From a virus: a stretch of 64,000 nucleotides of DNA. Of the stretch, positions 1 through 31,413 are shown piece after piece. How positions within the stretch are numbered: the stretch's first letter is position 1; the number at the start of each line of letters is the position of its first letter. Below the pieces are notes generated by a model that ran no database searches, was not told the DNA's origin, and saw nothing but the letters and a program-made list of their open reading frames with translations. Both the position numbers and the translations under genes were made by a program. The stretch spans positions 22,904-86,903 of IMG/VR virus record IMGVR_UViG_3300033144_003744; one strand, written 5' to 3'.

Positions 1-348
1 ACTTAAATTATCTCTATGTTTTTTTGAAAATTTTTTGACCATGGCAGATTTACTCATTTTTTGTCTTGTTTCAATAGAAACCTTTCTATTGCTCATTTTT
101 TGTTTAAATTCTTTTGAGTGATTTTTCCCATAAAATGGATTATCTTTACCATATCTATGAATATTAAACATAGGGTTATTTTTTCCAGAGGTAGCACAGG
201 ATAAACATAAATCTTTATAACAATAAAAACTTAATATTCTTTCCTTTCCACAACCATTACATATAACAATAATTTTTTTATGTGATCCCTTTGTTAAACT
301 ATCAGATGTATAACCGAATTGTTCTAATGTTTTTTCTTCGTCTATCAT
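1..348 (-). CDS. NUMOD3-type homing endonuclease, N-terminal part (runs off the window)
   Basis: Manual translation from ATG 348: MIDEEKTLEQFGYTSDSLTKGSHKKIIVICNGCGKER...NPFYGKNHSKE...SIETRQKMS; paralogous to 32254 and 33706. Confidence 0.8.
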   Translation of the reverse strand, partial: MIDEEKTLEQFGYTSDSLTKGSHKKIIVICNGCGKERILSFYCYKDLCLSCATSGKNNPMFNIHRYGKDNPFYGKNHSKEFKQKMSNRKVSIETRQKMSKSAMVKKFSKKHRDNLS

Positions 349-3459: not shown

Positions 3460-4035
3460 ATGAAAACAAAATCATTTACATTATTTAGTTGTGTAAAAAA
3501 TAATAATTATGTAAGTGTTGTTATTTCAATTAAAGAAAATGGGACATTTGCTAGTAAAAATTCAATTAAATTTACAAATTATAAGGGTAAAAAAGAATAT
3601 GATAAACAATATAGATTAAATAATGCACACAAAAGAAAACAATATTATAATAATAATAGAAAAATAATATTAAATAATAAAATAAAATATTATAAAATTA
3701 ATAAAGAAAAAATACTAAATAATGCTAAAAAATACTATATAAATAATAAAGAAAAAATACTTGAAAGGGCAAAACAATATTATAAAAGTACTCCAAATAA
3801 ACATAAATTGTGGGCAAGAAGAAAAAATGCAAAACGTAAAGGATGGGGTATAAATCCAATAAATGAACCATTTGAAAATTGTCATTTTCATCATTTACAT
3901 ATAAATGGAGATCATAGTATAGGCATTTATATTCCAATGGATTTACATAAAGGTATATATCATAGTTATAAAAATGAAGAGAGTATGGAAAAGATTAATA
4001 AAATAGCAATGGATTGGTATGATTTAAATGAGTAA
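3460..4035 (+). CDS. His-Me finger (HNH-like) homing endonuclease
   Basis: K/Y-rich repeats then HFHHLHINGDHSIGIYIPMDLHKGIYH...INKIAMDW. Confidence 0.8.
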   Translation: MKTKSFTLFSCVKNNNYVSVVISIKENGTFASKNSIKFTNYKGKKEYDKQYRLNNAHKRKQYYNNNRKIILNNKIKYYKINKEKILNNAKKYYINNKEKILERAKQYYKSTPNKHKLWARRKNAKRKGWGINPINEPFENCHFHHLHINGDHSIGIYIPMDLHKGIYHSYKNEESMEKINKIAMDWYDLNE

Positions 4036-4300
4036 ATATAAACAACTAGTAGGAACATGTCCAGAATGTTCTGAAACAACGATGTTCGACGAGAGATCAG
4101 AAATAATATGTCAGGGCTGTGGACTGGTTATATTCCGACCAGGAAATGATCAGGTAGCTGTATATGTGGGTAACAATACCCCTTTAGTATATGAAAAAGA
4201 AGATTTTAAAATTCCGCATAATATGCATATCTCATCCGTAGCTGAGAGAATAGGATTAGCGATGATTGAACTAAAATATAATAGGGCTGATTTATTCTAA
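4028..4300 (+). CDS. TFIIB-type zinc ribbon protein
   Basis: CPECSETTMFDERSEIICQGCGLVI matches the TFB/TFIIB N-terminal ribbon pattern. Confidence 0.7.
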   Translation: MSKYKQLVGTCPECSETTMFDERSEIICQGCGLVIFRPGNDQVAVYVGNNTPLVYEKEDFKIPHNMHISSVAERIGLAMIELKYNRADLF

Positions 4301-4497
4301 TCAACCCACTCGTATCCCATTATTTTATCTGTAAATTTTAATAATAAACAAAACTCATATTGGTATACTAGAAAATTATCATATATTTCTAAATGTTCTA
4401 TTTTATTATCTTCTAATATTATACACCCAATAGGAATATCATCTATTACAATCTCTTCTCTTTTTCTCTCTATTATTTTAGTATCCATTATTTGCAC
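4297..4497 (-). CDS. hypothetical protein
   Basis: ORF overlapping the LAGLIDADG-like gene, last gene of the leftward unit. Confidence 0.5.
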   Translation of the reverse strand: MQIMDTKIIERKREEIVIDDIPIGCIILEDNKIEHLEIYDNFLVYQYEFCLLLKFTDKIMGYEWVD

Positions 4498-4885
4498 ACT
4501 TCATATCATTCTTAATTTTCTTTATTTTATTTATACCCTCAATATGATGATGCTGTTCACATGATATTTCTTCTACAATTCTTTCAAATTGTTTAAATTG
4601 AAATTTTCTACTTCCAGAACAGAACCCATTATAATTTGTAATAAATTCATTAAATCTTAATATATTATTGAGTCCATTAATAATCAATTTATTATCCTTT
4701 ACTTTAGATTTTATATCTAGACCTTGTAAGGTCTTAACAATATCAGATATTAATTCTTCTTCTTTTGATACTAGAATGAAACCAATTCCGACTGCATGGC
4801 CAGAACCGTATTTTTCATTCTTAGTAATATTTACTTGAAAGGAACCTGCTATTTCTATAAGTCCCAATAGCCTAATCGGTTCCAT
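4478..4885 (-). CDS. single-motif LAGLIDADG-like protein, probably catalytically degenerate
   Basis: LLGLIEIAGSFQVNI motif; C-terminal HHHIEGINKIKKIKNDM. Confidence 0.65.
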   Translation of the reverse strand: MEPIRLLGLIEIAGSFQVNITKNEKYGSGHAVGIGFILVSKEEELISDIVKTLQGLDIKSKVKDNKLIINGLNNILRFNEFITNYNGFCSGSRKFQFKQFERIVEEISCEQHHHIEGINKIKKIKNDMKCANNGY

Positions 4886-5468
4886 AGTACTTCTCCATTA
4901 TCAAGTTCTGCATATTTTCTGGACTATTAAGAAAATCATTACTATCTTGTACCTCATCCCACAAAGAATCTGTACCATTTTCTGGTTTAACAGATTCTAC
5001 TTTCATTTGTTCCTTTGGAACTATAATATTATCATACTTATCTAGAGAATCAATTACATTAATACTAGCATTGATCCTACAGCCACAAGGTGTTGTTACC
5101 CTAGCATTACTATCTGTGTACTGACCATCACATATTAGAAGGCAGTAGTCTCTGTTGTTAAGTAATGTATTCCTATCCGGTCCAGAAAATGTCCTACATC
5201 CATTTGGATGTGAATGTATTAGGCAATTAAATTTTAATGGTATTACTTCGTTAAAACGTACTTGAACTGAAGTGTTTTCCTGATCTGGTATGTATAAATC
5301 TACTAATTCGTTATCTTCAACAATGCCATAAATTGCTATCTCAATTCCGTGTCGTAACCCATAACGATAAACATCAAAGATTTCTTTATCTAATTCTTCT
5401 GGTATAAATAATTCATACTCTTGATGTGGGCAGTTATCATGTATGTTTTCTTCTAATTTCCAAGTCAT
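4872..5468 (-). CDS. JAB/MPN+ (JAMM) metallopeptidase
   Basis: E(IAIYG)...IHSHPNGCRTFSGPD = E..HxH-x7-S-x2-D. Confidence 0.88.
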   Translation of the reverse strand: MTWKLEENIHDNCPHQEYELFIPEELDKEIFDVYRYGLRHGIEIAIYGIVEDNELVDLYIPDQENTSVQVRFNEVIPLKFNCLIHSHPNGCRTFSGPDRNTLLNNRDYCLLICDGQYTDSNARVTTPCGCRINASINVIDSLDKYDNIIVPKEQMKVESVKPENGTDSLWDEVQDSNDFLNSPENMQNLIMEKYYGTD

Positions 5469-6058
5469 TATTTTATCCTCCTGATATCAAATGAAACACT
5501 TACTTTTTCTTCTGTTCCTGATGTAACTAAACCCATAGCGTGTGCAGCTACCATTGTTACTGTGGGAGCACATATTCCAGTGTATGAACTTACATCACTG
5601 ATGTTCCAGGTTGTAGATTTGGGAATCTTATTTGTAATACTATATCTTGTCTCATTAGCCCCAAGTGTCCAGATTGGCTTCTTATCAGCATGTTGCTGTA
5701 TAGGTACTTTCATGGGATAATCTATACAATTCATTATTATTCCATTCATCTGAAACACATCATCTGGGTCTTCTATAAATGGATGTTCTATAACTTTCAA
5801 TGATCTAAACCTTCTCAATGCTTCTGAACATAATTTAGTCTTCTCTTCTCCTTCTGACCATGCAGGATATGGTAGACGATTCCTATTGTGGTACTCTAAG
5901 GTGTCTCTATCATAAATATGAATCTTGGGTACACCTAAAAGAGCAGCATTATATGCAACCCAGGTTCCTACTCCACCAACTCCCAGTATGTGAATCTCTT
6001 CTGGAATAAAAAGATTCATTGATTCTTGACGATTATACACTCCAAGTTTTTCGCTCAT
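5468..6058 (-). CDS. ThiF/MoeB-family E1-like adenylating enzyme
   Basis: YNRQ, ILGVGGVG, IYDRDTLEYHNRNRL, conserved K, NCID; no Zn-binding CxxC pairs; start moved to MSEK. Confidence 0.88.
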   Translation of the reverse strand: MSEKLGVYNRQESMNLFIPEEIHILGVGGVGTWVAYNAALLGVPKIHIYDRDTLEYHNRNRLPYPAWSEGEEKTKLCSEALRRFRSLKVIEHPFIEDPDDVFQMNGIIMNCIDYPMKVPIQQHADKKPIWTLGANETRYSITNKIPKSTTWNISDVSSYTGICAPTVTMVAAHAMGLVTSGTEEKVSVSFDIRRIK

Positions 6059-6716
6059 GTGACACACCTCTCTCTTCTTGTGATTTGATTATTTTTCGTA
6101 CTTGATTCTGTAATGTTCTGTATGGATATTGTCTATGATACGGTGAATCTAAATTTGCAATACTTACATGTTGTTTTATCCTAGACACCATAAACTCATC
6201 CACTTTATCTATGTTTAAATTACCAGTACATAATGATCCACAATCAGTACCATCTTGATGAATGTAATTATGAAGTTCCCCATAATATCTAACTGCATTA
6301 CCAGATTCTTTATCAACAGTTATTTTTATAAGACCATGTACATATATTTTTTTAAGATCATCTGGAATAGAATACTTTGTTCCATAACGAACTATAGTTT
6401 TTATTTGTTCATAAATATAAACACTATACTCAATATATCCTTCTGTGATAATATATGGTATTGTTGAATCTTCCATGTTTACAATATGTTCACTGGAGTT
6501 TTTTATATTGTTTAGTTCATATTTCTTTTCATTAATTTTATTATCTAACTTATTAATTTCACTTCCTTGATTCTGCAAAAATACATTAATGGTTCTATTT
6601 AAGTTAGATATATCAGCTAATTCTGTTCTAAATCCATCAATAAAATTAATAAATTTACTCCTTCTATCTTCAATAGAATTCATAAAATTTACAATATCAG
6701 TATCTATTCCATTCAT
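6033..6716 (-). CDS. coiled coil plus E2/UBC-like domain protein
   Basis: HNYIHQDGTDCGSLCTG resembles the E2 HPN..G.(I/L)C motif; downstream ANLDSPY resembles E2 PN.xSP; lies between Ubl and E1. Confidence 0.62.
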   Translation of the reverse strand: MNGIDTDIVNFMNSIEDRRSKFINFIDGFRTELADISNLNRTINVFLQNQGSEINKLDNKINEKKYELNNIKNSSEHIVNMEDSTIPYIITEGYIEYSVYIYEQIKTIVRYGTKYSIPDDLKKIYVHGLIKITVDKESGNAVRYYGELHNYIHQDGTDCGSLCTGNLNIDKVDEFMVSRIKQHVSIANLDSPYHRQYPYRTLQNQVRKIIKSQEERGVSHERKTWSV

Positions 6717-6750
6717 AATCTATCCTCCCGTTAAAAAATATATTGGGTGA

Positions 6751-6978
6751 TTAAACCCAACTAGGCTTCTCTGATGTTTCAATTACAATTTCATACCAAT
6801 CTGTACCAAGATCTCTAGCTTCATCTTTATCTAATTCGTCCCCATCTATATATACATCAAAACTATTAATACAATTAGCCTTTGCTATATCATATATTGT
6901 TTCATATGCTGTCTTGTCATCAAAATCTGTTCCCGTTATAATTCCATTTACTGTTACTTTCTTAAAATCTATTTCCAT
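6751..6978 (-). CDS. ubiquitin-like (beta-grasp) small protein
   Basis: 75 aa; VTVNG..helix (IYDIAKAN)..FDVYIDGDEL..EIVIETSEKPS pattern; first gene of the E2-E1-JAB operon. Confidence 0.65.
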   Translation of the reverse strand: MEIDFKKVTVNGIITGTDFDDKTAYETIYDIAKANCINSFDVYIDGDELDKDEARDLGTDWYEIVIETSEKPSWV

Positions 6979-7014
6979 TTACTTATGCTCCTTTAATTAG
7001 GGATAATTCCCAAG

Positions 7015-7053
7015 GGTAGGCATGGAGTTGCACCATGCTAACTCTACTCTACC
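7015..7053 (-). ncRNA. tRNA-like minihelix (acceptor plus T-arm) in the 5' leader of the Ubl operon
   Basis: GGUAG-N10-GCAUGG-UGCAACU-CCAUGC-CUACC; TTAAATA box at about 7070-7076 places it at the transcript start. Confidence 0.6.
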
Positions 7054-7088
7054 TATATGCGACTGATTATATTTAAGTCTTGGGTTAA

Positions 7089-7463
7089 TTATCCAACTAC
7101 TTCATGACTAACAGATTCACCATTAACTAAAACTTCAACCTTTGGTACATCTGTCATGTCTAATACACTAGCATATCTTGTTTCCCAGAAAATTATGGTA
7201 CTATTTATAAAATGTTGATTATCACTTTCAATAATCAAAACATCTCCATCATATGTTGACCATCTGTTTGTGGCTTTATACCTTTTCTGAAAGTGGGTTT
7301 CAATTTTATTACCATATCCATCTGTCCAAGAATTATTATACCAATCTGTAAATCCATGTCTTGTTCTTATTTCCTTAAAACCATTCTTGTTCTTATGATA
7401 TAAATTTTGAGGTATCATTACTAACAATTTATGTGTTATTTCTGTGTCTATTTCTAAAATCAT
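7089..7463 (-). CDS. hypothetical protein
   Basis: 124 aa ORF, GGAG RBS. Confidence 0.55.
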   Translation of the reverse strand: MILEIDTEITHKLLVMIPQNLYHKNKNGFKEIRTRHGFTDWYNNSWTDGYGNKIETHFQKRYKATNRWSTYDGDVLIIESDNQHFINSTIIFWETRYASVLDMTDVPKVEVLVNGESVSHEVVG

Positions 7464-7467
7464 ATTC

Positions 7468-7668
7468 TTATTCTCCTTCCCTTATATTATTCTTTTTACA
7501 TGTAACTATTAAATATGCAACCCATATTAATATTATTTGTTCAATAGCACTACCTAAATGTATTAGATAATTAGCGAATATTACTAAAAATATTACTAAT
7601 GTAAATTCTACTATAATCTGTATTATTTTATTAATCATACTATATCCTCCGTTTATCCTATAAAACAT
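7468..7668 (-). CDS. small two-TM membrane protein
   Basis: two hydrophobic stretches; true start probably the internal MINK. Confidence 0.5.
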   Translation of the reverse strand: MFYRINGGYSMINKIIQIIVEFTLVIFLVIFANYLIHLGSAIEQIILIWVAYLIVTCKKNNIREGE

Positions 7669-7763
7669 TTTATCAAAATTGCCATAATTATAGTCATAAC
7701 CACGGCAAAAGTTACAAATTTATTTGATGCTGGTTGTGATAAATATTTCATTTTAACCTCTTT

Positions 7764-8294
7764 TTATTCTATTTTATTCCCTTTCTCTTGATTACAATGT
7801 ACACACATTGTTTGATAGTTGGACATTATATCCTTACCACCTTTACTCTTTGGGATTATGTGGTCTTTTGTCATCAGAACCTCTTTACCATCTTTAAGTG
7901 CATATAAATTAAAATGTGGTTTATCACTACCCGTAGATTCTATTGTAAAATATTGACCTTCAATGCCGCATTTAACACATACATGACTTCTAAAGAATAA
8001 TTTTAAATTATCTCTATTCATATTTATTGTATGTCCATTGAAATCTACTCTACATTCACCACACATGACTTTATCTAATACTTCATTTAAGGGGTAAACT
8101 CCAATTCTACCCATGGGTTCATCCATTCTTCCAACAGATTTAAAACCCATGTTAAATCCACGGATAAACATATCTTTATCCTTTACTCTTGGTATTTGAC
8201 CATAAGCTTTAATATATCCTTTCTCAAATTCTTTTAGAGCTTTAGTTCTTTTCTTCTTCTGTATGGTTCTAATATGTCCGCTACTTCTTTTCAT
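7764..8294 (-). CDS. HNH endonuclease
   Basis: CVKCG...MTKDHIIPKSKGGKDIMSNYQTMCVHCNQEKG. Confidence 0.88.
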   Translation of the reverse strand: MKRSSGHIRTIQKKKRTKALKEFEKGYIKAYGQIPRVKDKDMFIRGFNMGFKSVGRMDEPMGRIGVYPLNEVLDKVMCGECRVDFNGHTINMNRDNLKLFFRSHVCVKCGIEGQYFTIESTGSDKPHFNLYALKDGKEVLMTKDHIIPKSKGGKDIMSNYQTMCVHCNQEKGNKIE

Positions 8295-8478
8295 GTTGTG
8301 TCCACCTTTGTTTAGTTATCTTCCCATAATGTCAAACACAAATCATCATAATCACTACCACCTGTTATTGTATATTCTATTCCATCCTTATTTATTTTAA
8401 TAGATTTAAAAACATGGTCTACTATCTCTATACTTGTTATTTTGGCACCTATCAGTTTATTCATATTTATACCCCTCT

Positions 8479-10035
8479 TTATTCTATATATTGTTCTATC
8501 ATACCAACTGTATCAATATCTTCTATTCCTTTGTCTGTTCTAAATCCCATAAACTGTGGGAATCTTAAACCTATTTCTCCAGATTCATTTCTCATAACTT
8601 TCTCAGATTTTACTTCTATTATAATGGGATCTTCCCAACATTTATAGTCTTCTAAAGTTTCATATATTGGATTATTTATTATTCTTTCTGTAATCTGTCT
8701 AAGCTCAGAATGAGTAAATCCACCCCCACATTTACCAACAGATCTCAGGTTAACATTATCAAGTACAGCGATATTAAAGCTACTGAGCATGCTCAGTTTG
8801 TCTCCTGTACCAAATGTAGCTCCAGTTATAACAACATCAAATCTAAGTTCTGTGGGTTTATACTTATACCAATTTCCCCACTCACTTTTCCCCTGACCAC
8901 AATCATATGTGCCTATTGGATTCTTTATCATTACCCCTTCGTAACCAGCTTTTACACATTCTTTATGATATTTTAAAAGTTCATCCTCATTATTAATGTA
9001 TAACTTACCACCAGATAAACCACCACAAACATTAATAAGTGTCTGAGTTCTTTCTTCTTGTGATGCCATAGTCATATCTTCTGGTCCTAACATTAAAACA
9101 TCAAACAATCTAATAGTCACCGGATACTCATCAATATCATCATCAGTAACATCTTCTCTATTCATTCTATGTTGATACTTATTAAATGCCATTGGACTAC
9201 CATCAGGATTTACTCCATATATCTCACCATCGTAAATTCCAGGTTGTATATTCTCTTTCTTTAATAGTTCTACAATATCAGGAAAACTATCTGTCTTATC
9301 CTTTAATGACCTTGAAAAAATCTGTATTTTACCATCTTCATGGACATGTACTTGTGCCCTGGAACCATCATATTTAGGTTCGGCTAAAACTGGATACTCA
9401 ATTCTATCCATATGTTTTGAAATATCCTTAGCAAGTTGTGGTTTTACAGGGATACCAATTACTAATTCATCAGGTCCACCATTAAGTATTCTAATAATGT
9501 CTGTCATAGACTCATATTTTTTGTGTAGATTTGACACATATTTATTATCTTCATTATATATCTCAGCTAAAGACCAGGACAATACATTCATGCCTATCCT
9601 TACTCTGAGTTTATTAAGAAGGATATTAATAAAATATTTCTTTTCAAGATCATTCATTATAACCAAATTATAATGTAATTCATATTCCTTTTGTTTTGTT
9701 TTAATGCCTAAATTTTTAAATAGTTTATATATGGTAATAAGTTGTAAATCTACACCACTATTACTATTAATATCTAATTCACCAGAAAACATATCACCTA
9801 ATGTTTCATATTTTTTAGACTTATCATAATCATAATATGTATCAATAACCTTTTGAACAGTTCTTTTACTATATCCCACAGCCTCATTTTCCAAGGGTTT
9901 GCCCAACATAAAATTGCAAGCAATAATCTGATCCTCTGGACTAAGATTAGAAAGATAATCTGCTATCTGTCCTCTGGCCTCCTTTGGATTTTTCATGTTT
10001 TCTAAAAGGTTGTATAGTGTTTTGAATTTATTCAT
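8479..10035 (-). CDS. lig: ATP-dependent DNA ligase (archaeal/eukaryotic type with DNA-binding domain)
   Basis: motif I EPKYDGSR, DGEI, FDVL, EGVMIK, WYKYKP, LRFP. Confidence 0.95.
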   Translation of the reverse strand: MNKFKTLYNLLENMKNPKEARGQIADYLSNLSPEDQIIACNFMLGKPLENEAVGYSKRTVQKVIDTYYDYDKSKKYETLGDMFSGELDINSNSGVDLQLITIYKLFKNLGIKTKQKEYELHYNLVIMNDLEKKYFINILLNKLRVRIGMNVLSWSLAEIYNEDNKYVSNLHKKYESMTDIIRILNGGPDELVIGIPVKPQLAKDISKHMDRIEYPVLAEPKYDGSRAQVHVHEDGKIQIFSRSLKDKTDSFPDIVELLKKENIQPGIYDGEIYGVNPDGSPMAFNKYQHRMNREDVTDDDIDEYPVTIRLFDVLMLGPEDMTMASQEERTQTLINVCGGLSGGKLYINNEDELLKYHKECVKAGYEGVMIKNPIGTYDCGQGKSEWGNWYKYKPTELRFDVVITGATFGTGDKLSMLSSFNIAVLDNVNLRSVGKCGGGFTHSELRQITERIINNPIYETLEDYKCWEDPIIIEVKSEKVMRNESGEIGLRFPQFMGFRTDKGIEDIDTVGMIEQYIE

Positions 10036-30171: not shown

Positions 30172-31413
30172 ATGAATTTATTAAAAAAATTACCAGACTC
30201 ATATATAGTAGGTGGAGCAGTAAGAGATACTATCATGGGTAGAAATCCAAAAGATATTGATATAGTAACTTCAATGCTTCCAGAGGATGTATTAAAGAAT
30301 TTTGACTCTCATCCATTGGGTCAGAAATTTGGTACAGTTGTAGTAAGAGACGATATCGGTGAAGTAGAAGTCACTACAATGCGTAAAGATTTGACAGGTG
30401 GTAGACATCCAGTAGTTGAGTTTACTGATAAAATTAGAGAAGATTTATCCAGAAGAGATTTTAGAATGAATGCAATGGCTATGAATGAATATGGTAGAAT
30501 TATTGATCCATTTAAGGGTCAGCAGGATATTATAAACAAACGTATTTCTAGTGTTGAAGATCCTTTAATCACTGTACACCCAATACACGGGGATCCACTG
30601 AGAGTACTTAGAGCAATTAGATTTTCTATTATTTTAGATTTTGATATTGAACAAGAATTACAAGTAGCAATAATGGATTCCGATCTTTCTACTTTATCTG
30701 GAGAAAGAATATACTCTGAACTCAAGCAGATGTTTAGTGAGCCTGAGGAAGCCATGAGAGCTTTATATTTCTACAATGTATTGTCCAAGGTACTACCGGA
30801 GGTAGATGATTTATCATGGTGTGTACAGAGTGTTCAGTGGCACCCTGAGGGAGATGCATTAGAGCACACCATTCTTGTAATGGAAAGAGTAAAGGAACAT
30901 GGTCCATTAGCTGTAATGGCCGCTATGTTACATGATATAGGTAAACCTGTAACCAGGGAAGGAATGACCTATCATGGCCATGCAAAAGCTGGAGTAGAAA
31001 TTGCAGAATCTATTATGAGAAGATTGGGTAGACCTAAAATTGAAGTTGAAGCTGTTAAATTTGTAGTAGAAAATCATATGAAAATTAAAGAAATAGAAAA
31101 TATGAAAGTATCTAAATGTAGAAAATTATATGATAGTCCACATTTTGATTTGCTTATGTTGATTGCCAGGGCTGATAATGCAGATAAACATAATGATTCT
31201 ATGTTTGAATTTATTGAACAAGATAATTTAGTTAAAGAAATTAATATTGAACCTTTGCTTGATGGATATGATCTAATAGATTTAGGTCTAAATGGTTCTG
31301 ATATTGGTAATGTTCAAAAAATATTAAAAGAATTACAATTAGAAAAAATTATTAGAACTAAAACTGAAGCTATTAGTTATGTAAATATATTTAAATATTT
31401 AGGTGGTGAATAA
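30172..31413 (+). CDS. cca: class II CCA-adding/poly(A) polymerase-family nucleotidyltransferase with HD domain
   Basis: VGGAVRD..DID, RRDF, DPLRVLRAIRF, HPEGDA..HT, LHDIGKP, HA..G, HM. Confidence 0.9.
   Translation: MNLLKKLPDSYIVGGAVRDTIMGRNPKDIDIVTSMLPEDVLKNFDSHPLGQKFGTVVVRDDIGEVEVTTMRKDLTGGRHPVVEFTDKIREDLSRRDFRMNAMAMNEYGRIIDPFKGQQDIINKRISSVEDPLITVHPIHGDPLRVLRAIRFSIILDFDIEQELQVAIMDSDLSTLSGERIYSELKQMFSEPEEAMRALYFYNVLSKVLPEVDDLSWCVQSVQWHPEGDALEHTILVMERVKEHGPLAVMAAMLHDIGKPVTREGMTYHGHAKAGVEIAESIMRRLGRPKIEVEAVKFVVENHMKIKEIENMKVSKCRKLYDSPHFDLLMLIARADNADKHNDSMFEFIEQDNLVKEINIEPLLDGYDLIDLGLNGSDIGNVQKILKELQLEKIIRTKTEAISYVNIFKYLGGE

What the first reader, a model, noticed from the sequence alone, without database searches (positions are those of the whole stretch)
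6742..6780. The viral Ubl ends in EKPSWV, with no C-terminal glycine
Seen: the last codons are GAG AAG CCT AGT TGG GTT TAA, and there is no Gly in the last 17 residues. The final codons also form one arm of a hairpin (TTGGGT..ACCCAA, then a T-tract), which could make Ubl more abundant than the enzymes. Known: E1 enzymes almost always adenylate a C-terminal Gly, often exposed by JAB cleavage. Inference: either JAB trims WV to leave a non-Gly (Ser) terminus and E1 has relaxed specificity, or an ancestral GGT mutated to AGT and the system is decaying.
Basis: partly seen in the sequence, partly recalled or inferred. Interest (0 to 1): 0.7.

Follow-up and report, generated by a model that had tools for sequence, protein, structure and literature searches.

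The report
Viral ubiquitin-like protein lacking terminal glycine
A tailed virus carries a small ubiquitin-fold protein beside activating, conjugating-like and trimming enzymes, and this protein keeps a conserved tail ending in serine or alanine plus a variable stub instead of the usual glycine, so it may be a rare non-glycine protein tag.

Summary
The 75-aa gene (6978..6751, minus strand) ends E-K-P-S-W-V-stop, with no Gly after G58.

It is neither a sequencing error nor decay. All five relatives found keep T-S-E-K-P. A small residue follows (Ser in four, Ala in one), then a variable stub: WV in two, GV, SWV, or nothing.

With six sequences AlphaFold gives a confident beta-grasp with a disordered tail (pLDDT 83). 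PDB matches are mostly ubiquitin-like domains. Extending 13 of 14 usable alignments puts the modifier's terminal Gly on Ser73.

The genes downstream are:
- an E2-like protein, weakly Prok-E2_D-like, with an aligned Cys;
- a 199-aa ThiF-type E1 with intact ATP motifs, under purifying selection;
- a protein with the window's only JAMM motif.

Best reading (about 0.5): the JAB enzyme removes Trp-Val, and the E1 activates Ser73 (Ala in a relative). Nothing biochemical was tested, and the complex prediction gave no verdict.

The hairpin is real but weak. The scan noted this stretch before only on this same genome, in an overlapping window.

Rated a new variant of a known kind, interest 0.55.

The parts
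6751..6978 (-). Ubl gene, 75 aa (P0001), with a beta-grasp fold and a disordered tail from residue 68 to 75
   Evidence: ORF and translation. AF2 with 6 sequences: pLDDT 83.3, pTM 0.68, strand-strand-helix-strand-strand-helix-strand. PDB and BFVD matches are mostly Ubl or beta-grasp domains. Single copy in the 86.9-kb genome.
6763..6777 (-). Codons of T68-S69-E70-K71-P72, the invariant tail motif
   Evidence: Invariant in 6 of 6 family members at 44-79% identity to the window protein. It lies in the lowest-confidence part of the model, where the last block has mean pLDDT 61.
6760..6762 (-). Codon AGT for Ser73, the proposed mature C-terminus. It is Ala and the last residue in relative P0008.
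   Evidence: Linear extension of 13 of 14 usable PDB alignments puts the modifier's terminal Gly here.
6751..6759 (-). Codons for Trp74 and Val75 plus the TAA stop, the proposed two-residue propeptide
   Evidence: The stub after position 73 varies: WV in 3 of 6, GV in 1, SWV in 1, absent in 1.
6732..6761 (-). Stem-loop GTTGGGT/ACCCAAT with a 6-nt loop, then ATATTTTTTA. A possible weak attenuator between the Ubl and enzyme genes.
   Evidence: Terminator-like scan. The fold is not more stable than shuffles, z -0.28.
6723..6729 (-). GGGAGGA ribosome-binding-like site for the E2-like gene
   Evidence: Read directly.
6033..6716 (-). 227-aa protein with an N-terminal coiled-coil-like half and a C-terminal E2-like domain carrying NYIH...GSLC163TGNL and ANLDSPY
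   Evidence: No Pfam, PADLOC, NCBIfam or PDB sequence hit. hhalign of the C-terminal domain against 10 Prok-E2_D proteins scores 30.0, probability 40%, with Cys163 on the family's VCMG cysteine; 0 of 100 column shuffles reach that score, maximum 23.4. The motifs are kept in the 42%-identical relative in L002. The Atlas lead to Prok-E2_D scores 0.89.
5468..6067 (-). Minimal ThiF-type E1 adenylating enzyme, 199 aa from the GTG or 196 aa from the ATG at 6058
   Evidence: Pfam ThiF 3.5e-12, 46.4 bits against a cut-off of 28.1. The best NCBIfam match is the short ThiF PRK08644 at 4e-12, below its cut-off. GxGGxG, D50/D52, N58-R59-N60-R61 and D113 are invariant in 4 of 4 homologues. PDB profile hits include ThiF-type 9egb, PaaA, UBA5, TcdA, MccB and BubCD. 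pN 0.257 against pS 0.786 versus L002.
4872..5468 (-). 198-aa JAB/JAMM metalloprotease candidate. The motif HSHPNGCRTFSGPD starts at 5216, with Glu43 upstream.
   Evidence: HxHx7SxxD occurs once in the six-frame translation of the 64-kb window against 0.135 expected. Pfam Prok-JAB reaches only 15.7 bits against a cut-off of 25. No PDB sequence hit.
4478..4885 (-). LAGLIDADG homing endonuclease gene overlapping the end of the JAB gene. Probably a mobile insertion rather than part of the pathway.
   Evidence: Pfam LAGLIDADG_1 6.3e-06; PADLOC HEase 1.5e-10.

Best explanation
The 75-aa protein is a virus-encoded ubiquitin-fold modifier made as a short precursor. The neighbouring JAB/JAMM protease removes the variable stub, Trp-Val in this virus. 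That exposes Ser73, which is Ala and already terminal in a distant relative. The small ThiF-type E1 adenylates this small non-glycine residue. The modifier then probably passes to Cys163 of the E2-like protein for attachment to target lysines of host or virus. The conserved T-S-E-K-P-(S/A) tail would play the part of ubiquitin's L-R-L-R-G-G. Shown here: the fold, the operon, the conservation pattern and the intact enzyme motifs. Inferred: the cleavage, the adenylation of Ser/Ala, the transfer to the E2-like protein and the targets. The hairpin and T-tract after the stop codon may lower read-through into the enzyme genes, but the evidence for that is weak.
For: (1) Tail conservation. TSEKP is invariant in 6 of 6 members. 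The next residue is Ser in 5 and Ala in 1. What follows is WV (3), GV (1), SWV (1) or nothing (1). This pattern of a fixed end followed by a variable stub is what Ubl precursors show. (2) Fold. AF2 gives pLDDT 83.3, all five models score 80.8-83.3, and the tail is disordered. The top PDB and BFVD matches are mostly Ubl or beta-grasp domains, with VIA Z 4.5-6.0 and Foldseek probability up to 0.91; they include the bacterial Ubl 8tyx_A, ThiS and MoaD. The ESM Atlas's own model neighbours ThiS clusters at TM 0.53-0.59. (3) Register. In 13 of 14 rows that I could extend linearly, the terminal Gly falls on residue 73. These were ubiquitin (4 of 4), NEDD8 (1 of 1), SUMO1 (3 of 4), SUMO3 (1), Fubi (1) and human ISG15 (3). 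The residue numbers of the mature ends are recalled textbook values. (4) Enzymes. The ThiF E1 is above the Pfam cut-off and its motifs are invariant. It is under purifying selection. The window has a single JAMM motif, located in the gene abutting the E1. The E2-like domain aligns its conserved Cys to the Prok-E2_D cysteine, scoring 30.0 against a shuffle maximum of 23.4. (5) Precedents, from passages I read. BilC (JAB) cuts BilA between Gly97 and Ala98 to expose the reactive end (10.1101/2023.09.26.559546). QbsD is said to remove the two residues CF from QbsE, and CxnF a decapeptide from CxnE (as told in PMC5925218). CD-NTases conjugated by Cap2 end in Gly or Ala (PMC10097602).
Against: No biochemistry exists. 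The family has only six sequences, five of them closely related. Sequence profiles do not place the protein in ThiS/MoaD: there is no Pfam hit, and hhalign probability is under 2% against 28 MoaD/ThiS proteins. The structural Z scores are middling, and the tool warns that Z under 8 can reflect only a common arrangement. In the E. coli Cap2 system a Gly-to-Ser change at the terminus abolished conjugation, while Gly-to-Ala was tolerated (PMC10097602), so Ser is chemically the less expected residue. The JAB and E2 assignments rest on motifs and sub-threshold scores. In the only relative whose DNA I could read beyond the E1 gene (L002), the roughly 450 bases after E1 do not encode a JAB. By analogy with BilA (Gly97|Ala98), the final Ala of P0008 could itself be a one-residue stub, which would make Pro72 the mature end.
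Confidence: 0.5

Rival explanations
1. The same pathway, but the JAB enzyme cuts one residue earlier. The mature modifier would end in Pro72 (T-S-E-K-P), and the stubs would be SWV, SGV, SSWV and A.
For: TSEKP is the strictly invariant block, and position 73 does vary between Ser and Ala. In E. aridi BilA the removed stub is a single Ala after the reactive Gly, and P0008 ends in a single Ala after Pro. One extension in the wide search (Caldiarchaeum Ubl 5zew_A, 1..75 of 77 on model 4..70) lands on 72.
Against: 13 of 14 linear extensions land on 73, not 72. From my own knowledge, I know of no E1-type enzyme that activates a C-terminal proline. A small Ser/Ala is closer to the Gly/Ala termini already known.
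Confidence: 0.12
2. No trimming occurs. The E1 activates whatever residue is last (Val75 here, Ala in the relative), as MccB- and PaaA-type ThiF enzymes act on non-glycine ends. The JAB protein would serve only to remove conjugates, and the variable end would be neutral drift.
For: The E1 profile matches PaaA (5.7e-07) and MccB (about 6e-05) about as well as it matches true Ubl E1s, all through the Rossmann part only. The relative L002 shows no JAB directly after its E1.
Against: Enzymes that bind a C-terminus usually constrain the last residues most, yet here the last one to three residues are the least conserved part of an otherwise invariant tail. The tail length up to residue 73 matches that of ubiquitin-type modifiers.
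Confidence: 0.13
3. The beta-grasp protein is not the E1's substrate at all. It would be a non-covalent adaptor or regulator, and TSEKP a docking motif. The E1 would act on something else, for example the C-terminus of the E2-like protein, as Cap2 acts on a non-Ubl protein.
For: Iyer et al. 2006 state that several prokaryotic Ub-related families have no conserved C-terminal glycine (PMC1779556, passages). The E2-like proteins of this virus and of L002 themselves end in W-S-V and W-R-V. There is no sequence-level link to ThiS/MoaD.
Against: The gene order Ubl, E2-like, E1, JAB, with overlapping or abutting genes, is the order of known conjugation cassettes. A disordered tail that is invariant and of ubiquitin-like length is what an E1 or DUB substrate looks like.
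Confidence: 0.17
4. The missing glycine is a sequencing or assembly error, or the cassette is a decaying remnant after a GGT-to-AGT mutation.
For: AGT is one transition from GGT. Only six family members exist.
Against: The same ending occurs in independent assemblies at 77-79% identity, and the motif occurs at 44-46% identity. The E1 motifs are invariant, with pN 0.26 against pS 0.79. The JAMM motif is intact. All four genes are open.
Confidence: 0.03

Closest known systems
BilABCD (bacterial ISG15-like) ubiquitination operons: Ubl BilA, E2 BilB, JAB DUB BilC, E1 BilD (10.1101/2023.09.26.559546, abstract and passages read)
   Same: Both have four parts: Ubl, E2-type protein, E1 and a JAB peptidase. 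In Bil the JAB pre-processes the Ubl by removing a very short C-terminal stub, one residue after Gly97. The bacterial Ubl structure 8tyx_A is among the Foldseek matches of the model (rank 6, probability 0.80).
   Different: BilA exposes a glycine, whereas no glycine is available here. The Bil E1 has a CYS domain with a catalytic cysteine, per the abstract read. This E1 is only 199 aa, and apart from C77 no Cys is invariant; in particular none is invariant in its C-terminal half. PADLOC gave only generic E1-E2 hits on the Rossmann part, and no hit for the Ubl, E2-like or JAB proteins. Bil is a bacterial defence system, whereas this cassette sits in a virus.
Type II CBASS Cap2/Cap3 acting on CD-NTases (PMC10097602, passages read; 10.1101/2022.03.31.486616)
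   Same: This is an E1/E2 activity that activates a C-terminus which may be Ala instead of Gly, with a JAB enzyme (Cap3) cutting exactly after that residue. It is the precedent for the Ala-ended relative P0008.
   Different: The substrate there is a nucleotidyltransferase, not a beta-grasp protein, and E1 and E2 are fused. In the E. coli system Gly-to-Ser abolished conjugation. No CD-NTase was noticed next to this operon.
JAMM-trimmed sulfur carriers QbsE/QbsD and CxnE/CxnF (as described in PMC5925218, passage read)
   Same: A small ThiS/MoaD-like protein carries extra C-terminal residues (two, CF, in QbsE) that a neighbouring JAMM protease is said to remove before a ThiF-type enzyme adenylates the new end. 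The number of residues removed and the short ThiF-like E1 both resemble this case.
   Different: Those carriers expose Gly-Gly and deliver sulfur to a metabolite. Here there is no Gly, an E2-like gene is present, and no biosynthetic or sulfurtransferase gene was seen among the neighbours I scanned.
Prok-E2_D plus ThiF cassettes of Bacteroidota mobile elements, and operon class 6d of Iyer et al. 2006 (PMC1779556, passages)
   Same: The E2-like gene lies directly upstream of a ThiF-type gene (L036). The conserved cysteine aligns. Class 6d is described as Ub-like + JAB + E1-like + E2-like.
   Different: Only weak profile similarity: probability 40% for the E2 part and 24% for the E1. The histidine that Iyer et al. 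describe after the cysteine is not kept in both of my sequences: our H in DSPYH is N in L002.

Membership tests
Beta-grasp (ubiquitin-like) fold | Strand-strand-helix-strand-strand-(short helix)-strand topology | tested here: met
   AF2 on 6 sequences gives pLDDT 83.3, with E7-10, E13-17, H24-34, E41-44, H51-57 and E63-67. PDB and BFVD neighbours are mostly Ubl or beta-grasp domains, with Z up to 6.0 and TM 0.5-0.57. The Z values are middling by the tool's own note.
ThiS/MoaD family (Pfam PF02597) | Significant match to the family profile | tested here: not met
   No Pfam hit at E <= 0.1 except an unrelated family at 0.086. hhalign against 28 MoaD/ThiS proteins and against 8 ThiS-type proteins gives probability 0.2-1.4%.
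Conjugatable or thiocarboxylate-forming Ubls (ubiquitin, SUMO, SAMP, ThiS, MoaD, BilA, BubA) | C-terminal Gly or Gly-Gly, free or exposed by trimming | tested here: not met
   There is no Gly after G58, and none of the 6 family members has a Gly at or before position 73 of the tail. As a control, 28 of 29 stand-alone MoaD/ThiS proteins drawn from 61 genomes end in GG, and 1 ends in GGGSSG.
Conjugatable or thiocarboxylate-forming Ubls | Encoded next to an E1-type adenylating enzyme | tested here: met
   The ThiF-domain gene lies two genes downstream in the same tight minus-strand array.
BilABCD-type ubiquitination system | E1 with a catalytic-cysteine (CYS) domain | tested here: inconclusive
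   The E1 is 196-199 aa. Apart from C77 no Cys is invariant, and C163 is Ala in P0005. I made no structure of the E1, so the absence of a CYS domain is inferred from length only.
BilABCD-type ubiquitination system | Match to defence-system models | tested here: not met
   PADLOC gave only 'E1-E2' models at 2.4e-06 or weaker, on residues 10-116 of the E1, and nothing for the Ubl, E2-like or JAB proteins.
E1/ThiF/MoeB adenylating enzymes | Rossmann GxGxxG, the Asp pair, the N-x-N-R arginine finger and the Mg-binding Asp | tested here: met
   Pfam ThiF scores 46.4 bits against a cut-off of 28.1. G26/G28/G29/G31, D50/D52, N58-R61 and D113 are invariant in 4 of 4 and align to the same motifs of 9egb.
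JAB/JAMM (MPN+) metalloproteases | E ... HxHx7SxxD zinc and catalytic motif | tested here: met
   HSHPNGCRTFSGPD is present, with E43 upstream. It is the only such motif in six frames of the window, against 0.135 expected.
JAB/JAMM (MPN+) metalloproteases | Family profile match above threshold | tested here: inconclusive
   Prok-JAB scores 15.7-16.3 bits against a cut-off of 25, covering only the motif region. No PDB sequence hit. No structure was made.
E2/UBC-like, Prok-E2_D (PF14460) | UBC-like domain with a catalytic Cys | tested here: inconclusive
   No Pfam hit even at E 10. hhalign against 10 Prok-E2_D proteins gives probability 40%, score 30.0, with LC163TG on VCMG; 0 of 100 column shuffles reach 30, and the reversed control scores 12.1. 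Only two sequences of this protein were available.

The most novel reading that the evidence does not exclude
A virus of a prokaryote runs its own ubiquitin-like conjugation pathway whose modifier is joined through a C-terminal serine (alanine in a sister lineage) after removal of a two-residue cap. To my knowledge this would be the first beta-grasp modifier activated by an E1 at a non-glycine residue. The E1 would be a roughly 200-residue minimal enzyme with a widened specificity pocket and no catalytic-cysteine domain.
Probability: 0.35. Interest if true: 0.78.

Novelty: new variant of a known kind. Interest (0 to 1): 0.55.

Why it matters
Terminal glycine is treated as nearly universal for modifiers handled by E1 enzymes. 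The known exceptions are a non-Ubl substrate ending in alanine (CBASS CD-NTases) and small peptides (MccA and PaaA-type substrates).

A ubiquitin-fold modifier that is kept under selection with a serine or alanine end would show that the E1 pocket can be retuned. It also comes as a small set of parts (75 + 227 + 199 + 198 aa) that can be expressed and tested directly.

Its presence in a tailed virus rather than in a host defence island raises a second question. The virus may tag host or viral proteins for its own benefit, the reverse of the Bil system, which tags phage tails.

Tried and rejected
Searches for more relatives gave little.
- The word-indexed search found 3 proteins among 7 candidates, self included. 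The profile search found 4 among 25. The exhaustive HMMER search found 3, one of them (P0009, a 933-aa repeat protein) judged spurious.
- IMG/VR scans found nothing with the E1, the Ubl alignment, the E2-like alignment or a degenerate DNA pattern for DW..I.I.TSEKP.
- GTDB genome contigs gave nothing with the Ubl alignment. The DNA pattern gave two chance matches, L003 and L004, which are not Ubl genes.
- GenBank phages gave no blastn match to the operon and no tblastn match to P0008. The E1 gave only 30%-identity ygdL-type hits.
- The single metagenome scan gave one 1.5-kb contig, L002.

Structure attempts that failed or gave nothing.
- The first AF2 model, from 3 sequences, had pLDDT 53.5. 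Its Foldseek hits (HPr and others, E about 1) were discarded as meaningless.
- Complex prediction on two E1 copies + ATP + Mg + Ubl returned no verdict, with runs of 0.51, 0.07 and 0.02 against a mark of 0.32. This is no evidence either way.
- PDB sequence searches gave nothing usable for the Ubl, the E2-like protein (coiled-coil noise including prefoldin and IpaB fragments) or the JAB protein.
- hhalign of the Ubl against MoaD/ThiS found no similarity.

Other blanks.
- The look-up of sequencing runs listed no run, so I could not lay reads or look at expression.
- The host stays unresolved. The terminase is only 26% identical to Bacteroides phage proteins. The TFIIB-type ribbon scores 27.5 bits, below its 29-bit cut-off. 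ARAGORN found no tRNA genes.
- Literature searches turned up no paper on a viral Ubl-E2-E1-JAB cassette or on a Ser-ended Ubl. These were listings and passages only. Supplementary files were not opened. Alignments of BilA, BubA or CD-NTase termini in supplements could hold further non-Gly cases.
- The PDB code 9egb was not found in any relevant paper.

Full report
**What is there.** The finding lies at the 3' end of a minus-strand gene, 6978..6751, that encodes 75 residues ending ...IVIETSEKPSWV. The last glycine is G58, so "no Gly in the last 17 residues" is exact.

The gene heads a tight minus-strand array:
- the 75-aa protein;
- a 34-nt spacer;
- a 227-aa protein (6716..6033);
- a 199-aa ThiF-domain protein (6067..5468) that overlaps the previous gene;
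- a 198-aa protein (5468..4872) that abuts it;
- a LAGLIDADG endonuclease gene (4885..4478).

The window belongs to an 86.9-kb virus record with direct terminal repeats. The virus encodes a large terminase, a portal and a minor tail protein, so it is a tailed virus. I could not settle its host.

**Is the ending real and conserved?** Yes. This is a very rare family. I found five relatives in all, in collections of about 15 billion proteins (5.8 billion 90%-identity clusters and 1.84 billion 50%-identity representatives).
- P0002 and P0003 (79% identical) end TSEKPSWV.
- P0010 ends TSEKPSGV and P0011 ends TSEKPSSWV.
- P0008 (71 aa, 44-46% identical, seen on two contigs) ends TSEKPA.

In the six-sequence alignment T68-S69-E70-K71-P72 is invariant. 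Position 73 is Ser (5) or Ala (1). Everything after it varies or is missing. This rules out an assembly error. It also argues against decay, because a dead gene would not keep a five-residue block inside an unstructured tail at 44% overall identity.

**Is it a ubiquitin-like protein?** Sequence methods say nothing. There is no Pfam, PHROG, PADLOC, NCBIfam or PDB sequence hit. hhalign finds no similarity to 28 MoaD/ThiS proteins that I drew from 61 genomes as a control set.

Structure does answer.
- A model built from three sequences was poor (pLDDT 53.5).
- Adding the divergent P0008 and two more sequences raised all five models to 80.8-83.3, with pTM 0.68. The order strand-strand-helix-strand-strand-helix-strand is that of a beta-grasp, and residues 68-75 form a low-confidence tail.
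- Foldseek against the PDB lists the Ddi1 UBL (E 0.023, probability 0.91), SUMO-3, NEDD8, a bacterial Ubl from a Ubl-deubiquitinase complex (8tyx_A), ubiquitin, ISG15 and ThiS.
- The Foldseek-independent search of 48,161 chains gives Z 4.5-5.9, with ubiquitin-like, UBX, RBD, PB1, MoaD and ThiS-like domains making up most of the list.
- BFVD returns mostly viral ubiquitin-family proteins.
- The ESM Atlas's own model neighbours ThiS clusters at TM 0.53-0.59.

The scores are middling for such a small domain. The agreement across methods is what carries the assignment.

**Where would the reactive end be?** The second-look alignments give first and last aligned residues. I extended these linearly to the known mature termini: ubiquitin and NEDD8 G76, SUMO1 G97, SUMO3 G92, Fubi G74 and ISG15 G157. 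These numbers are recalled, not from a call. The terminal glycine falls on model residue 73 in 13 of the 14 rows I could use:
- ubiquitin rows 19, 25, 29 and 36;
- NEDD8 row 42;
- SUMO1 rows 9, 10 and 20;
- SUMO3 row 35;
- Fubi row 27;
- ISG15 rows 38, 47 and 49.

The exception is an NMR SUMO-1 entry (row 15), which lands on 75. I left out parkin, Raf RBD, UBX and fusion entries, because they have no reactive end or their numbering is unclear. In the wide search one archaeal Ubl lands on 72. Tails are flexible, so this is a count of tail length rather than a superposition. Even so, it puts Ser73, the very position at which P0008 stops with Ala, where glycine normally sits.

**The enzymes.**
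- E1. It matches Pfam ThiF above threshold and looks most like the short, roughly 200-residue ThiF type (PRK08644, 4e-12, below that model's cut-off). Its glycine-rich loop, Asp pair, N-R-N-R finger and Mg-binding Asp are invariant in 4 of 4 homologues and align to the same motifs in a solved ThiF-type protein. Against the 64-65%-identical gene in L002, synonymous sites are saturated (pS 0.79) while pN is 0.26.
- JAB. The 198-aa protein holds HSHPNGCRTFSGPD. This is the only HxHx7SxxD in six frames of the whole window, against 0.135 expected. The family profile stays below threshold.
- E2-like. The 227-aa protein has no database hit. Its C-terminal half aligns to ten Prok-E2_D proteins with score 30.0 and probability 40%. 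That beats 100 of 100 column shuffles (maximum 23.4) and puts its conserved Cys163 on that family's cysteine. The motifs SLCTGNL and ANLDSPY are kept in the 42%-identical relative.

I therefore treat the E1 as established, the JAB as likely and the E2 as plausible.

**Mechanism and its rivals.** The pattern of fixed end plus variable stub, the register and the neighbouring JAB fit a precursor whose stub is clipped to expose Ser73, followed by adenylation by the E1. The literature offers three precedents, all from passages I read:
- BilC removes a single residue after Gly97 of BilA.
- QbsD is said to remove two residues from QbsE.
- Cap2 accepts Ala as well as Gly at the end of CD-NTases.

The same paper reports that Gly-to-Ser killed conjugation in the E. 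coli system, so a Ser end would need a differently shaped pocket. Three other readings remain open: a cut after Pro72, activation of the untrimmed end, and a non-covalent role for the protein. In the one relative whose DNA I could read past the E1 gene, no JAB follows within about 450 bases. The complex prediction gave no verdict and no sequencing run was listed, so neither adds anything.

**The hairpin.** A 7-pair stem (3 G-C pairs) whose 5' arm is formed by the Ser-Trp-Val codons, a 6-nt loop and a T-rich run sit between the stop codon and the ribosome-binding site of the next gene. It passes a loose terminator pattern but is no more stable than shuffled sequence. Attenuation that leaves more Ubl message than enzyme message is reasonable but untested. 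If the stub is cut off anyway, its codons would be free to serve the RNA stem. This is my speculation.

**Comparison and novelty.**
- The cassette works like a Bil-type system, but it fails or leaves open several membership features: no glycine, a minimal E1 and no defence-model hits.
- It resembles JAMM-trimmed sulfur carriers in the trimming step and in E1 size. It differs in having an E2-like gene and no Gly-Gly.
- Iyer et al. already noted prokaryotic Ub-related families without a conserved terminal glycine, so absence of glycine alone is not new.
- What is unusual is that combination inside an E1/E2-like/JAB cassette, with a conserved ubiquitin-length tail, in a virus.
- My four literature searches found no description of such a case.

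I rate it a new variant of a known kind, with moderate interest. It rests on six sequences and on no experiment.

Noticed in passing
window 6033-6044 (minus strand) and L002 476-487: The E2-like proteins themselves end in Trp-x-Val: ...KTWSV in this virus and ...RAWRV in the relative. This is reminiscent of the Ser-Trp-Val end of the Ubl. It could be chance or a shared docking or processing signal.
   Followed up: no
L002 1052-1500: In the relative with a 65%-identical E1, the genes right after E1 are a 69-aa and an 81+-aa ORF. The 69-aa ORF has no match in this virus's genome and the 81+-aa ORF shows no similarity to the JAB protein, so the JAB gene is not always adjacent.
   Followed up: partly
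window 5468-6067 (E1), residues 159-167: Apart from C77 no cysteine is invariant in the E1, and none is invariant in its C-terminal half. A Tyr-Thr-Gly-Ile...Ala-Pro-Thr-Val block (Y159, T160) is invariant in 4 of 4. The Bub pathway uses a tyrosine on the E1 crossover loop for an oxyester intermediate (PMC11601596), so a cysteine-free relay is conceivable here.
   Followed up: no
window 4478-4885: A LAGLIDADG homing endonuclease gene overlaps the end of the JAB gene by 14 nt. An HNH endonuclease gene lies at 7764-8294. The region around the cassette is rich in mobile endonuclease genes.
   Followed up: partly
window 4000-8500: Terminator-like hairpin plus T-run sites are enriched: 5 found against 1.1 +/- 1.0 in shuffles. 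Four of the five are on the coding (minus) strand. One is a 13-pair stem at 7708..7679 and one is at 4307..4284 at the end of the array.
   Followed up: no
P0009 (933 aa, not in the window): A long repeat protein scored E 1.2e-07 against the Ubl in the exhaustive search, through five repeats of a ...KVTITWN...SGEITGTSFDD... unit. I judged this a compositional or short-motif resemblance to residues 8-48, not homology.
   Followed up: partly
window 4028-4300: A 90-aa protein has a TFIIB-type zinc ribbon scoring just under the Pfam cut-off (27.5 against 29 bits). It is the main hint of an archaeal host, but the CCA-adding enzyme at 30172-31413 is of the PolyA_pol/HD type.
   Followed up: partly
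L036 1291-2819: In a Bacteroidota genome the Prok-E2_D gene is followed directly by a 269-aa ThiF-type gene. This is the same E2-then-E1 order as in the virus. No small Ubl or JAB gene lies within the 3.4 kb that I read.
   Followed up: partly
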